Of a stretch of DNA of 64,000 nucleotides, positions 1 to 6,004 are shown in pieces; positions within the stretch are counted from its first letter, which is position 1, and every line of letters begins with the position of its first letter. The translations under genes were made by a program, and so were the position numbers. Source of the DNA: Eledone cirrhosa. Taxonomy: Eukaryota. Under the pieces are notes generated by a model. It did no database searches. It saw nothing but the letters and a program-made list of their open reading frames with translations, and had not been told where the DNA came from. The stretch is taken from the NCBI GenBank assembly GCA_964016885.1, contig OZ024745.1:4092001-4156000 (forward strand). The letters run 5' to 3'.

Positions 1-57
1 TGGCCTGTTATTTCTATATTCAAATTCTATCCTAATTGGATCTAATGGCCTGAAGAA
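1..57 (-). CDS. HNRNPH: hnRNP F/H-like gene, coding exon 7 (partial, runs off window), qRRM3
   Basis: Acceptor ttgttatttgcag| then FFRPLDPIRIEFEYRNNRP, in phase 0 with the previous exon. Confidence 0.88.
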
Positions 58-141
58 CTGCAAATAACAAGTAAAGTTGTATAATTATAAATTATGCACA
101 TATACAAATTTAAAACAAGTTTGACCAATATGTATACTTAC

Positions 142-371
142 ATCTCTGATATCCTGTTCAATTGCTTGGAATGGTAACCCTCTCATGTGTACTGAATGAC
201 CAGATTTACTGACATACATACTGCCAGGAGTTGCACCCTTTGGTCTTGCAAAAGATCCTTGTAATCGACCTCTAGTTTGAGGACGAAGAGTACCTCTCCT
301 GTTGATTCCACCAAAACCCATTCCACCGCCATAACCACCTCCATACTCATCATAGTCATCCTCAAAAAATC
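142..371 (-). CDS. HNRNPH: hnRNP F/H-like gene, coding exon 6: Gly/Tyr-rich region and start of qRRM3
   Basis: tttgtag|GA...AGAGAT|gtaagt; encodes SGHSVHMRGLPFQAIEQDIRD, typical of qRRM3. Confidence 0.93.
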
Positions 372-461
372 CTACAAATATAAATATAAATATATACAAT
401 AAAAACAGTTCCATTTTACATATTTAACAGTAATCAAAACTATTATATATAAAACACTCAC

Positions 462-667
462 CTTTGACATTGCGCCCACCTCTTCCTCGACCATAACCAC
501 CAGCAGCAAATCCACCACCACCCATGGCGTTCATACTACCACCAAAACGATCGTTTCTATCATATGGACCAGGCCTATTACCAGCCATAAATCCTAGATT
601 ACGCTGCCGTGGTGGACCAACATTTGCATAAGCCTCTTGCAATGTACTCGGAAATATTTCAATATAT
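462..667 (-). CDS. HNRNPH: hnRNP F/H-like gene, coding exon 5: end of qRRM2 and GYR region
   Basis: ttttag|A TAT ATT GAA ATA TTT (R-YIEIF) ... RPGPYDR motif ... AAAG|gtgagt. Confidence 0.94.
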
Positions 668-1835
668 CTAAAATAAGAGAAGATTTATATTAAAACTTGC
701 ACAATGCTTAAAAATATGCAAAGAAAATATTCCCAATTATACAGAGGATACTGAAACTTGGCCAATAAAAATTATATTGATTATAAATTGAAATTATTTA
801 ATATTCAGTATCCTGTGTATTAAATAATGGGAAAATAAAGAAAACTGAAAAAACCCATTCACACATCATCTACACACTAGACACTAAATTAAACCATGTT
901 ATATTGCCACTGTTGTACTAAGGAGCTCATTCAGCCAAAACCCTTAATACTAGGGAGATTTCAATGATCAAGCCTGAGAATTCAGAAACATTAGGCTAAG
1001 ATTTTTTTCTTCTTTTCTTTTAAATCATATTTACAAAAATGTTTTCAGGAAAACATCCAAATGACCCACCAACCAAATAAAGCTAACCTTCAAGCTTGAT
1101 CAAATCAAAAACTCCGTAAAGACATCTAATTTCAAACGGAAATGCCCAAATGCCTCAAACTAGAATTTTAAATCTGTTAGAATACACATCAGAAATACTC
1201 CTGCCAAGGAGGCACCAGCCTCAATTTCATTTTAATCATTTCTTATACAAATGTATTAAATATATCCATTAGAAAATTGACGGTATACACCAACAGTCAA
1301 GGTAACAGTCCGTAAATATAGCTAACTGAAAATATGCCAATCTACATGAATTTTATCCAGTTCAATTTGCCCGTTAAGTCAATTTTTCAAAACCTTGGGC
1401 AAAAATATAATTTTCAAAAGATACAGATCACTAAATATAGGCTGAATGAGCTTTTACATATAAATTACAATATTTAGTCTTAAAAACCCATCTTAATAAA
1501 TTATTGAAAATTTAGTCTACAATGATGATAATACAAAAATTACAGAACTTTATAGAAAAAAAAAAAATTAAAAAAAATAAAAAAATCAATACACAAAGAA
1601 AAATGCTTTTTATTAGAAATAATTAAAAGTTAAGGGCAAATTACAAGCCAACCAAAATTTTAATCAAAAAGTTTCAATTTAATAAAAAGATTTTTAAAAA
1701 AAAAACATTTTTCCAGTGTGCAAATTTATCCCAATATAAATTATTAAAAAAGAATTAAAAAATTAATTCAGTCATTCAAACTCAGCACACAAACCAACAA
1801 TAGATAAGCCCCAACAGGCCCATCCGTCCTCCCAC

Positions 1836-1974
1836 CTGTGCCCCAGTCTTGCCATGTGTTTATCCAATGCTTTTTTGGCTATTTCTGGTGATGCATACTG
1901 TACATAGGCCTCCCCCGTGCTGCGCCCCTGTCGGTCCTCAGGTAGCATAATCCCATTGGGAACAATCTCCAGCC
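1836..1974 (-). CDS. HNRNPH: hnRNP F/H-like gene, coding exon 4 (139 nt), core of qRRM2
   Basis: gtgtag|GG CTG GAG ATT ([27 protein letters not shown]...LGHR) ... CACAG|gtggga. Confidence 0.95.
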
Positions 1975-2657
1975 CTACACACCCGTCCCAATCAGAAAGA
2001 CACATAATGAAGCAACAAGTGAAACTTATCATGCAAAAAATATTAAAAACCAATTTAAATTAAGATAAAATATCAAAGTGCATACAAAAAGTTAAATATT
2101 CAAAATACAAACATTATGTCAATAAAAGGTGGGTTATTAAAGCCCAACCTTTAACAAAGTGAGCAACATTTCATTGTAACAATTAGCAAGATTTTATAAT
2201 TATATTTACAGTAAGTTAACCATTTAATTATCATTCCAAGAAAAGAGGAATAAAGGACTAAAGTTGAAACAAAAGTCTTACAATTTATACAATCAAAGTT
2301 TTAATTACAAAATCACATCAGCAGTACAATACAATACATGGCAAACAACTTTAACAATTCAATTAATTACTAAAAATTAATTATTTATAAAATACAAAAT
2401 ACAGTTTCTAGAGTATTACAGGTGAAATATGTTTAATCCAACCTAAGATAAAAATAGGGAAGAAAACTCACAAACAGCCCCTGAAAATGTAGAATATGTT
2501 AATGTGATATAAGAGGTCTAAACTGGACTACAATATCTTCATAGACTAGTCCAATGTCTACAATAATGGCCTAGTCCACTTTTATAAATTTCATCGATTA
2601 CAATAAAAAGTGGGTAAAAAAATGTGAAAGTTATTTCAATATCAATGAAAATCTTAC

Positions 2658-2801
2658 CTGTGAAAAATTGAGCAATCTCTTCTTTGGAACATCCAAATGG
2701 CAATCCTCTCATCCTTACCACAGCATCACTTTGACCTGTCACCTGGCTTGACCCTGCTCTCTTGATCACCCAATCCATCTCACTCTTCTTAGATCTGAAC
2801 A
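2658..2801 (-). CDS. HNRNPH: hnRNP F/H-like gene, coding exon 3: qRRM1/qRRM2 linker and start of qRRM2
   Basis: tttgtag|TG TTC AGA (VFRSKKSEMDWV...VVRMRGLPFGCSKEEIAQFFTG) ACAG|gtaaga. Confidence 0.95.
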
Positions 2802-2886
2802 CTACAAAGGGTTAAATTGAAAATATTTGATATTGAAAGTAGATTGATCCATAGTAATCGATGATCAATAATCTACACCAACCTAC

Positions 2887-3042
2887 CTTCAATGTATCTC
2901 TGACCCATGTGGGCATTATTCTTCTTCAATGCCAACTCCTTGTCTTCATTACTGACAAACTCCACAAACGCCTCGCCACTAGGTCGACCCTCCCTGGAAT
3001 AAGTGAAGTGGACTCCCAATTCTTCACCATAAACTCGGCAAC
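2887..3042 (-). CDS. HNRNPH: hnRNP F/H-like gene, coding exon 2, qRRM1 (absent from the ORF track)
   Basis: ttgaacag|GT TGC...: CRVYGEELGVHFTYSREGRPSGEAFVEFVSNEDKELALKKNNAHMGQRYIE, GAAG|gtaggt. Confidence 0.95.
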
Positions 3043-3124
3043 CTGTTCAAACAAGACACCATTTATCACTTTCTATTAAGGGCTGTCAATATTTCCCCCC
3101 CCAAAACAGATGTTTTATACGAAC

Positions 3125-3227
3125 CTTCAAAGAACTTGAGAACATCTGAGGCTGTAGCTGCCCATGGTAAACCACGAAGTCTTACAACACAGCCCTCGTC
3201 GTCGTTGTGTTGATCTTGCTGTTGCAT
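3125..3227 (-). CDS. HNRNPH: hnRNP F/H-like gene, coding exon 1 (ATG at 3227-3225)
   Basis: MQQQDQHNDDEGCVVRLRGLPWAATASDVLKFFE, donor GAAG|gttcgt; exon acceptor lies upstream (exon start 3284 or 3262). Confidence 0.92.
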
Positions 3228-4476
3228 GGTGACAGCAAATTTAAGAGAAATATGGAAATTCACTGCAAGTCCTTGTCAAACTTCCTACACAATACAAAAT
3301 ATTTTATTTAAGCAAATCAAATCAGTTTTTTTACAGCAAGAAAATATAAATAAATAAAATGCAAGTGCAGACATGTTTTAACCTATAAAAATAGAAATGT
3401 CCTACTTTAAATTTATTAAAAACTACAAAAATTTGTGAAGAAAAAAAAAAAAAACGAAACAAAGTCGCGTTCCAAGAAAACCGGAAAATTTTGATTTATT
3501 GAAAATATTGTAAAAAGGTGAATATTTGAGGACAAAAGACGGATTTATTAGAGTTTAACATATTTCACAGAGAGAAAGAGAAATATACTTTATATAAATA
3601 TATATTTAAGGTTTATTTAGAATAAATAAGGTTTAATTTAATAAATGTGAAAAAAAAAAAGGGGGAAGTGAATGTCGGCTTTGTTAGGATGGAGGAGACG
3701 GGGAAGAATGGCTTTGTCTTCAAATTATTACAGAAATAATATTTCACTCATTAATAAACAAATACGGCAACGATTTTAGCCAGAAATTGTTAAAATATAT
3801 GTTTTAAACTAATTATTAGTTGAGATAAAAGGAATCTCTATTTTGTTGAACAAGAAACGTGTAAGAAAGACTTCAATATGGAGTACAACCTTTCTCTCTC
3901 TTTATTAATGTTCACTTCATTTCAACATACAATATTTACCAATACTTATGTCGATTAAAATCACTTTCGTTATAAAGTATATATGGAGATATATTAAAGA
4001 ATCATTAAAATGAAACTAAATGAATTTTTCTAACGGAAAATAATAATTAGGAAACAATCAAGTCAATGGCTGAAACAGTTTTTCCCGCCTAGACTTGTCT
4101 TCCTGGATATATTAATGGAAAACTAGCTTTACATATCATTATAGGCTAACACATTAGGATATAACACTAAACAAATTAACACCGCACAAATTTGAAAATT
4201 AGGAAACCAAAATTGAGAAAAATAAGAAAAAAAAATTTTAAAAAGAAACGGATTTTTATTTGTTTCTTGCCCGGCAAGACAAAAGATGGCACGTGCAGCC
4301 GATACGTGATACAAGATAAAACTACTTTTTAACATAAAAGAATAGCTAAAATTATGGTTAAATCGTAATTGATATTTTCCTTAGTACCTTATGAATTAAT
4401 TAATGAAAAATCTAGCATAATATTGTAGATAAAAACATGTAAATACTTTCTTCCGTGTTATAAAGACACACCTTAC

Positions 4477-4510
4477 CTTTTCGTTGACCTGGTAAAGATG
4501 GCGTAGAGGG
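4477..4510 (-). other. Probable non-coding first exon of the hnRNP F/H gene
   Basis: Pyrimidine-rich start CCCTCTACGCCATCTTT followed by a strong donor AAAG|gtaagg at 4477/4476; start position is approximate. Confidence 0.65.
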
Positions 4511-4555
4511 CTTATCGTTTCACTATATACTGGAGCATCATGGGAAATACTCTCC
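4490..4555 (-). promoter_or_regulatory. Core promoter candidate with YY1-like, TATA-like and ZNF143/Staf-like motifs
   Basis: AAGATGGCG at 4495-4503 (second AAGATGGC near 4283); TATATAG on minus strand near 4523-4529; TTTCCCATGATGC on minus strand near 4535-4547. Confidence 0.55.
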
Positions 4556-6004
4556 AATCAACATTTATCACTTTGTTTTTTATATATTTATTAATAATAT
4601 TTTTACTCCCTTATTAATAGTGTATTCTTATAAAAAGAAAAGAAATTTCATAAATTGATAAAATTATTCAATGTTTCTGAAGAACTTTTTTTTAATGCTT
4701 CTATTAGTAGAACGTAGCCATATTGCTCAATAGCTTTCCATGGAATAGTCTTTGTCATCGTCTTTTATCCCAGTCATCTATCACAGACTTTAATTAAATT
4801 CACTATTTTTTAATTGGACAAATATTAAGTTTTTACTCTGTATGCTTCATTCTGGATGAACAATGAGTTTTCTCTTGTAAGTATCACTACATTAGTACTC
4901 CGGTTTTTTTCAACCAATGTTTATGTAGGTCTTTCGTCATACAAACAATCTTCTATATTTTATTCGCAATAGCAAACAACTCCACAAAATACCAATTGTA
5001 ACTCCTTCAATTAAAATATACTTTCACGAGATTTTTGGAAATTAACTCCTGTGTTACCTTGCCATTTCTTATGAGATGTCACTAAAAGATTACTTTAGGA
5101 AAGTTTCTTTTTTGACCAACTTATCGATCTCTATCGATCACAGAATGTCATTTCCTTTCATGTAGACTTAATGTTTGTTGTTGTCTCGTCGCAATATTTA
5201 TAGAATTTCTTTAGAAAATATTTTCTATCAATTAATTCTTCAAAATGTCGATCGAAAAAAAAAAAAAAACTTTAAAACTTGATTTCTTGGTGTAAAATAT
5301 TAAAGTTTCTTCCATTGTCAACAATATTATTTTCATTTTAACCTAAGTCGATAATATACAGATATTATGTTTTGTTTCACTGAAAAGTTTATATTTATTA
5401 AATTTAATGAACATAATTTTATATTCTTACTCTTTTATATAATTTCTTGCTCCAGAAAAACAAATGTGTGACTTTCAATGAATGAAATTATAATGAAGTG
5501 TTGGACAGACTCCAAATCTAAAATAATTAATTATAGAAATAAAATATATTTCATTTTAAAGATAAAGGTTATTACAATGTAAAAATTGACTTTGTTGCCA
5601 CATCATTTGATGAGACATCTATAGTTTATTAGTTGTAATTACTTTCACCGTAAACGAAAGTTAAGACATTAACAATTGTAAGATATACATGTATAACGAG
5701 GAAGTGTGGCATTACAATAGTAGATTAGTATCGTGAAAAACAAAGTGGGCGCTACCATAATATATACTGTTGTGTGAATAACAAAACACCTGCTGCTAAC
5801 GATATTTATAAATATCAAAATTGACAGGAATATCAAACCCATCACAACATGAAATTATAAATAATTCGTAAGAATTTCCCGTAAAATTGTGGCTTTATTT
5901 AAAGTATTAATAACTTAAGTGATACTAATTAGAATCTATTTTTCTTTGGTTGTGGATCTTAGACAGTGTATGTGTGTTCCTGGATAATGTATGCATAAAC
6001 CCGT

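What the first reader, a model, noticed from the sequence alone, without database searches (positions are those of the whole stretch)
1772..1995. 139-nt frameshifting exon framed by G-runs: HNRNPH1-type autoregulation apparently conserved in an invertebrate
Seen: exon 1974-1836 is 139 nt (not a multiple of 3). Its acceptor lacks a pyrimidine tract and has G-runs instead (TTGGGACGGGTGTGTAG). Its donor is weak and G-rich (CACAG|GTGGGAGGACGGATGGGCCTGTTGGGG). It sits between the two longest coding-region introns in otherwise very AT-rich DNA. Skipping it gives a TAG at 596-594, about 130 nt upstream of the next junction. Established: hnRNP F/H qRRMs bind G-runs, and human HNRNPH1 exon 4 (same GLEIVPNG...GHR boundaries) is skipped in an NMD-coupled autoregulatory loop. 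Inference: the loop is ancestral to bilaterians and retained here.
Basis: partly seen in the sequence, partly recalled or inferred. Interest (0 to 1): 0.75.

Follow-up and report, generated by a model that had tools for sequence, protein, structure and literature searches.

The report
Pre-bilaterian G-run switch exon, hnRNP H
In this octopus gene for a splicing protein of the G-binding hnRNP H family, one frame-breaking exon is packed with G-runs at the same places as in coral, annelid, clam, crustacean, insect and vertebrate copies, so it likely works as the self-damping splicing switch already shown in mammals and likely predates bilaterian animals, but the switch itself is untested here.

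Summary
The gene is an octopus hnRNP H orthologue. Exon 1974-1836 (minus strand) is 139 nt, has G-run splice sites, and its skipping gives TAG 596-594, 132 nt before the next junction. It is nearly invariant in three related species: 1 change in about 140 nt against about 9% in other exons. In metagenome loci, 37 of 39 readable intron-bearing copies are 139 nt, and all 37 have the donor GTGGG. Glycine codons are GGG in 59 of 72 cases inside the exon against 6 of 69 next door. Mammalian skipping, NMD and detained flanking introns at this exon are published. Skipping was not seen in 7 contig-only runs, a weak test; contigs do hold the flanking introns. Verdict: a new, deeply conserved member of a known kind, with an SRSF5 precedent. 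This scan noted the same exon three times before on other DNA.

The parts
1836..1974 (-). 139-nt coding exon 4, most of qRRM2 (GLEIVPNG...GHR); frame-breaking if skipped
   Evidence: inclusion joints in 7 of 7 runs; 1 change in 138-141 nt in 5 runs of organisms A-C where its contig is listed
1975..1990 (-). acceptor with two GGG runs where the pyrimidine tract would be
   Evidence: near-identical last 16 nt in bivalve- and annelid-placed loci; at least one GGG run in the last 30 nt in 14 of 17 clusters
1991..2117 (-). highly conserved upstream intron flank with displaced T/C-rich stretch and one TGCATG at 2035
   Evidence: 0-1 substitutions and 2 one-base gaps over 1947/1978-2117 in organisms B and C; TGCATG not shared at this place by distant loci
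1809..1835 (-). donor GTGGG followed by further G-runs; with the exon's last GGGG (1844-1841) four runs form a quadruplex-like pattern
   Evidence: GTGGG in 37 of 37 loci with the 139-nt exon
1676..1808 (-). conserved downstream intron flank
   Evidence: 11 substitutions and 3 gaps over 1676-1865 in organism A
1841..1954 (-). four exonic G-runs at glycine codons (1954-1952, 1928-1925, 1916-1912, 1844-1841), all GGG
   Evidence: 4 of 4 against 3 of 43 in exons 1, 2, 3, 5, 6; 59 of 72 against 6 of 69 in 17 other loci
594..596 (-). premature TAG reached if exon 4 is skipped, 132 nt before junction 462
1772..1774 (-). in-frame TGA reached if intron 4 is retained
2539..2541 (-). in-frame TGA reached if intron 3 is retained
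1975..2657 (-). intron 3 (683 nt), candidate detained intron
   Evidence: one contig of run X24 covers 1947-2686 without a difference
668..1835 (-). intron 4 (1168 nt), candidate detained intron
   Evidence: X24 contigs 640-1550 and 1591-1865
2658..3227 (-). coding exons 1-3 (3227-3125, 3042-2887, 2801-2658): qRRM1 and start of qRRM2
1..667 (-). coding exons 5-7 (667-462, 371-142, 57-edge): end of qRRM2, Gly-rich linker, start of qRRM3; gene continues beyond the window
3285..4476 (-). 5'UTR intron (1192 nt); upstream exon ends at 4477
   Evidence: loose end behind 3286 in X24 matches 4479-4492

Best explanation
This is the octopus counterpart of the mammalian HNRNPH1/H3 139-nt 'essential exon', with G-runs in the acceptor, at silent codon positions and behind the donor, and it likely works as a negative-feedback switch in which the gene's own protein would bind those runs and block recognition of the exon. 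Shown here: the exon, its homology, the G-runs, their conservation from cnidarians to vertebrates, and the stop codons that skipping or intron retention produce. Inferred from mammals: at high protein level hnRNP H qRRMs coat the runs and hinder U1 and U2AF at two already weak sites. The exon is then skipped (frameshift, TAG 132 nt before the next junction, predicted NMD target) or the transcript is held with both flanking introns, and protein output falls. The octopus genome gave one match for the exon, so the loop would be self-regulation rather than cross-regulation between paralogues.
For: Homology. Constraint beyond protein need: 1/141 against 8.7-9.1% in other exons, Fisher P 8e-5 to 2e-4 in three runs; intron flank nearly unchanged. 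Deep motif conservation: GTGGG donor in 37 of 37 139-nt loci and 16 of 17 clusters, against 0 of 13 upstream-intron donors with G at +3. Glycine GGG 59/72 against 6/69 in neighbouring exons, 24/31 against 47/436 in six intronless loci, and 3 of 18 at the matching glycines of qRRM1. All 27 stored proteins that read R-W past the exon continue with G, E, D, A or V, as GTGGG predicts. A stop follows 29-158 nt into the next exon in 7 of 11 loci that hold it; the other 4 end first. [quoted passage not shown] Contigs run from the exon into intron 3 in 7 of 7 runs.
Against: No binding, skipping or NMD data for any invertebrate copy here. G-runs can enhance as well as repress, so conservation does not give the sign. 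The octopus exon does not meet the UAGG plus GGGG silencing code of Han 2005: 0 TAGG, no GGGG at +3..+10, and each feature is in only 7 of 16 other representatives. Intron-holding contigs are not unique to introns 3 and 4: a long intron 2 of organisms B and C is also held in 3 runs (joint 2822/2884). The X24 intron-3 contig has only 28-29 letters on its exon sides, under the tool's 31-letter bar for bridging. Cnidarian-placed acceptors have no GGG run. Two divergent loci lost the donor run (L049, L053). The Fisher tests on codons treat related sequences as independent.
Confidence: 0.7

Rival explanations
1. Feedback works mainly by intron detention: hnRNP H stalls both flanking introns and the transcript stays nuclear; skipping to NMD is minor or a vertebrate addition.
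For: Contigs hold intron 3 in 7 of 7 runs and intron 4 in X24, X2 and X17; both introns are long in a gene of 82-110-nt coding introns; detained introns are reported for the mouse exon.
Against: An exon length that is not a multiple of 3 is kept in 38 of 38 further loci at 136, 139 or 142 nt plus one more (39 of 39), which fits skipping to NMD; NMD would hide skipped RNA; a long intron 2 is also held in organisms B and C.
Confidence: 0.13
2. The G-runs are enhancers or sites for another factor: G-binding proteins help weak sites splice, giving constitutive inclusion, positive feedback or control by a different regulator.
For: G triplets next to weak donors can enhance inclusion (PMC1079783 discussion passage); inclusion joints are in all 7 runs; one TGCATG lies in the conserved octopod flank.
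Against: At the homologous mammalian exon, loss of the runs raises inclusion and raising HNRNPH2 lowers productive splicing; only this exon of the gene carries the pattern.
Confidence: 0.12
3. No regulation: protein constraint, codon bias or chance leaves a G-rich exon with an old intron pair.
For: The exon encodes a conserved qRRM2 core; old intron positions are common.
Against: Silent third positions and intronic +3..+5 are conserved where neighbouring exons and the matching qRRM1 glycines are not.
Confidence: 0.05

Closest known systems
Mammalian HNRNPH1 essential exon (exon 4 or 5 by numbering) and HNRNPH3 exon 3 (10.1101/686956; PMC1079783; 10.1101/2025.11.04.686541; PMC13001508)
   Same: Same 139-nt exon, phases and peptide; GTGGG donor; G-rich acceptor; frameshift and stop in the next exon on skipping; long flanking introns found in RNA contigs.
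   Different: No exonic UAGG and no GGGG at +3..+10 in octopus; one gene copy found, so no paralogue cross-regulation; skipping, NMD and binding not shown here.
SRSF5/B52 unproductive splicing, conserved from anemone to human and to fungi (PMC4379411)
   Same: A splicing factor with a homologous NMD-inducing event across animals, with retained flanking introns.
   Different: SRSF5 uses an included poison exon; here a coding exon would be left out, and the factor's own motif is written into silent codon positions. For SRSF5 the event was seen in ESTs in each species; here only the layout is shown.
C. elegans hrpf-1 exon 5 skipping and NMD (PMC2265522)
   Same: An invertebrate hnRNP F/H gene with a skipped exon that is an NMD substrate.
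   Different: The paper says the skipped form keeps two of three RRMs, so it is probably a different, later exon (inferred, not aligned here); autoregulation is not shown in the passages read.

Membership tests
hnRNP F/H proteins | qRRM domains homologous to hnRNP H | tested here: met
   Each window exon is 94-100% identical to O. bimaculoides hnRNP H3-like P0122; the exon peptide groups with mollusc hnRNP F/H proteins, 99/96.
HNRNPH1-type essential-exon AS-NMD switch | Homologous 139-nt exon with the same boundaries and phases | tested here: met
   L006 (47/47 to PDB hnRNP H) and L022 share the boundaries; mouse exon 139 nt.
HNRNPH1-type essential-exon AS-NMD switch | Poly-G motifs in and beside the exon, under selection | tested here: met
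HNRNPH1-type essential-exon AS-NMD switch | Skipping gives a stop more than 50-55 nt before a later junction (rule recalled) | tested here: met
   TAG 596-594, 132 nt before junction 462, further junctions downstream.
HNRNPH1-type essential-exon AS-NMD switch | The exon is actually skipped in RNA | tested here: inconclusive
   No 667/2657 joint in 7 contig-only runs; contigs drop rare variants.
HNRNPH1-type essential-exon AS-NMD switch | Flanking introns are detained | tested here: inconclusive
   Contigs cover introns 3 and 4, but cannot show level or location, and another long intron is held in organisms B and C.
HNRNPH1-type essential-exon AS-NMD switch | Skipped RNA is stabilised by NMD block | not testable with these tools
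   needs inhibitor or knockdown data
HNRNPH1-type essential-exon AS-NMD switch | The gene's own protein binds the runs and represses inclusion | not testable with these tools
   needs CLIP and a minigene
UAGG plus 5'-splice-site GGGG silencing code (Han 2005) | Exonic UAGG and GGGG in intron bases 3-10 | tested here: not met
   0 TAGG and GGGA at +3..+6 in the window.

The most novel reading that the evidence does not exclude
A position-fixed splicing code, written partly in silent glycine codons of the very domain that reads it, has kept hnRNP H under its own negative feedback since before the cnidarian-bilaterian split; acceptor G-runs were added on the bilaterian line. The lymphoma-mutated G-runs of human HNRNPH1 would then sit in one of the oldest identifiable cassette-exon switches in animals.
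Probability: 0.55. Interest if true: 0.65.

Novelty: new member of a known kind. Interest (0 to 1): 0.5.

Why it matters
Cassette-exon regulation usually turns over fast, and few events are traced across all animals (SRSF5 is one). A second case, with its cis-elements readable base by base from coral to mammal, gives a natural alignment that ranks which G-runs matter in an exon mutated in mantle cell lymphoma and targeted by splice-switching oligonucleotides. It also makes the age of hnRNP H homeostasis directly testable by one RT-PCR in Nematostella, oyster or octopus. The mechanism itself is not new.

Tried and rejected
No RNA holder listed on record; the 7 runs laid are guessed or unlabelled, though all hold spliced joints; 7 of 24 listed runs were laid, and X24 may come from the source study. 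The skip joint 667/2657 was not listed in any: contigs show presence, not absence. Control for retention: in X24 the 1192-nt 5'UTR intron has little or no cover (contigs at depth 2.3 and 6.3, three empty or near-empty bins) beside 24-49 for introns 3 and 4; depth cannot rank parts of a gene, so this is not counted as evidence. Rfam on 1-5000: 0 matches. Folding of acceptor, exon and donor: z -0.75, 0.90, -1.23, no special structure. TGCATG not conserved in place: 2 of 17 loci have one within 200 nt upstream, at other distances. Rows set aside from the 64 loci: 6 intronless, 2 cut before the donor, and 17 distant, of which L053 (GTGCT) and L056 (GTGGG) have an intron at this donor and 15 show none or are spurious. 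L024, L034, L045, L049 and L053 could not be placed in a lineage, so nothing is claimed for sponges or other early branches. The Atlas look-up gave nothing. A full-length protein search of the window's product was not done; identity rests on exon-by-exon comparison with stored proteins. PMC3064809 and PMC6142364 (passages) say nothing on invertebrate copies of this exon.

Full report
Observation. The minus strand of 3227-1 encodes an hnRNP F/H protein in seven coding exons within the window; the gene continues in L002. Each exon is 94-100% identical in amino acids to Octopus bimaculoides P0122, and the next best named proteins are other molluscs. The genome is 3.0 Gb and gives one match for the exon peptide (counts there are lower bounds). 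Exon 1974-1836 is 139 nt. Skipping gives TAG 596-594, 132 nt before junction 462; retaining intron 3 or 4 gives TGA 2541-2539 or 1774-1772. Skipping exon 5 or 6 would also shift the frame, so frame alone is not special. The G-runs are: none of 1725 30-nt windows in the intron bodies has two runs, the donor has three.

Close relatives. Seven of 24 listed runs were laid, all as contigs, from 7 studies and 4 coded organisms. All hold both inclusion joints. In organisms A-C the exon shows 1 change in 138-141 nt in the 5 runs where its contig is listed, against 8.7-9.1% in other exons of three runs tested (Fisher P 8e-5 to 2e-4). The 143 intron bases upstream show 0-1 substitutions and 2 one-base gaps in B and C; in A, 1947-2154 shows 14 substitutions and 7 gaps, and 1676-1865 shows 11 and 3. 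Contigs run from the exon into intron 3 in all 7 runs; in X24 one covers the whole intron and two cover most of intron 4. Against specificity, a long intron 2 in B and C is also held in 3 runs. No skip joint was listed, which contigs cannot turn into absence.

Distant relatives. A metagenome scan with the exon peptide gave 64 loci. Of the 47 closest, 39 have introns and a readable donor, 6 are intronless and 2 are cut. Of the 39, 37 are 139 nt, one 136 and one 142; they form 17 clusters at 90% identity. All 37 have GTGGG, as does the 136-nt exon; the 142-nt one has GTGCC. None of 13 donors of the preceding intron has G at +3 (L027 left out as a copy of L025). At least one GGG run lies in the last 30 nt of the acceptor in 14 of 17 clusters, against 1 of 11 acceptors of the next exon. 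Bivalve- and annelid-placed loci share nearly the same last 16 acceptor bases with the octopus. Glycine codons are GGG in 59 of 72 cases inside the exon against 6 of 69 in neighbouring exons of 17 representatives, and in 3 of 18 matching qRRM1 glycines; the split first glycine is GGG in 17 of 17 and the last histidine CAC in 17 of 17. Among 249 stored proteins, 196 read R-Y (spliced), 27 read R-W followed by G, E, D, A or V as GTGGG predicts, 2 read otherwise and 24 did not match the pattern. The selection used peptide words, not intron letters.

Lineages. L006 is 47/47 identical to solved mammalian hnRNP H, and L022 is nearest to shark H3. L005, L007, L009 and L025 are 46/46 identical to Dreissena, Daphnia, Zootermopsis and Neodiprion proteins. 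In a 46-column tree of 43 rows, L019, L036 and L044 group with five named cnidarians (95/86), L013, L014 and L016 with Capitella (97/89), and the window with molluscs (99/96) (few columns, midpoint root). For L036 the best named hits are anthozoans at 77-89% among the top rows, against 72% or less for named bilaterians. The cnidarian-placed loci keep the 139-nt exon, GTGGG with further runs, and 4 of 4 GGG glycines, but have no acceptor run. The donor and exonic layout therefore predates the cnidarian-bilaterian split (over 600 million years, recalled); the acceptor runs look bilaterian.

Mechanism. In mammals this exon is skipped, the skipped RNA rises under cycloheximide, HNRNPH1 crosslinks near it and poly-G mutations raise inclusion (10.1101/686956, passages). 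Skipping of the H1 and H3 exons was confirmed by RT-PCR and described as relatively weak (PMC1079783, passages and section 11). The mouse exon is 139 nt, flanked by detained introns and repressed by HNRNPH2 (10.1101/2025.11.04.686541, passages); oligonucleotides that force skipping lower HNRNPH1 (PMC13001508, passages). I infer the same feedback here at 0.7. Detention only (0.13), enhancement or another factor (0.12) and no regulation (0.05) are the rivals. The octopus exon fails the narrower UAGG plus GGGG code.

Novelty. Ten full-text searches listed no paper whose title or abstract start describes this exon outside vertebrates; most subscription papers, splicing databases and preprint supplements were not visible and may hold it. 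Precedents: SRSF5 unproductive splicing from anemone to human and fungi (PMC4379411, passages), and NMD-coupled skipping of a probably different exon in C. elegans hrpf-1 (PMC2265522, passages). Three earlier notes of this scan reached the same reading on two other octopus genomes and an insect; I saw them, and they are not independent support. Verdict: real, strongly selected, a new member of a known kind; interest 0.5.

Noticed in passing
window 2284-2328: 45-nt block deep in intron 3 kept in organisms B and C (4 changes) although their intron is longer; role unknown.
   Followed up: no
window 813-984 and 1251-1464: Blocks of intron 4 that still align in organism A (16 substitutions over 172 nt for the first); possible further elements, or only recent divergence.
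   Followed up: no
window 3095-3102: Run of 8 G in the 82-nt intron 1, behind a weak donor; the only other long intronic G-run in the coding region.
   Followed up: no
L006:1502-1640 and L022:1419-1557: Vertebrate H1-like and H3-like exons are at least 90% identical in DNA (they clustered), although the genes are old paralogues.
   Followed up: partly
L002:1-830: Tandem array of a roughly 40-45-nt unit several kb downstream of the gene (seen).
   Followed up: no
L002:5420-5660: Possible alternative 3' ends: reading on past the donor near 5647 gives the C-terminus of P0122, while splicing adds a further Gly/Met-rich exon.
   Followed up: partly
L049, L053, L056: Divergent copies with altered exon length or acceptor; L049 and L053 lost the donor G-run, candidate escapes from the switch. 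Lineage not placed.
   Followed up: partly
window 1228: One C>T difference (plus strand) in the X24 intron-4 contig; reads as G>A on the sense strand, so likely an allele and not A-to-I editing.
   Followed up: no
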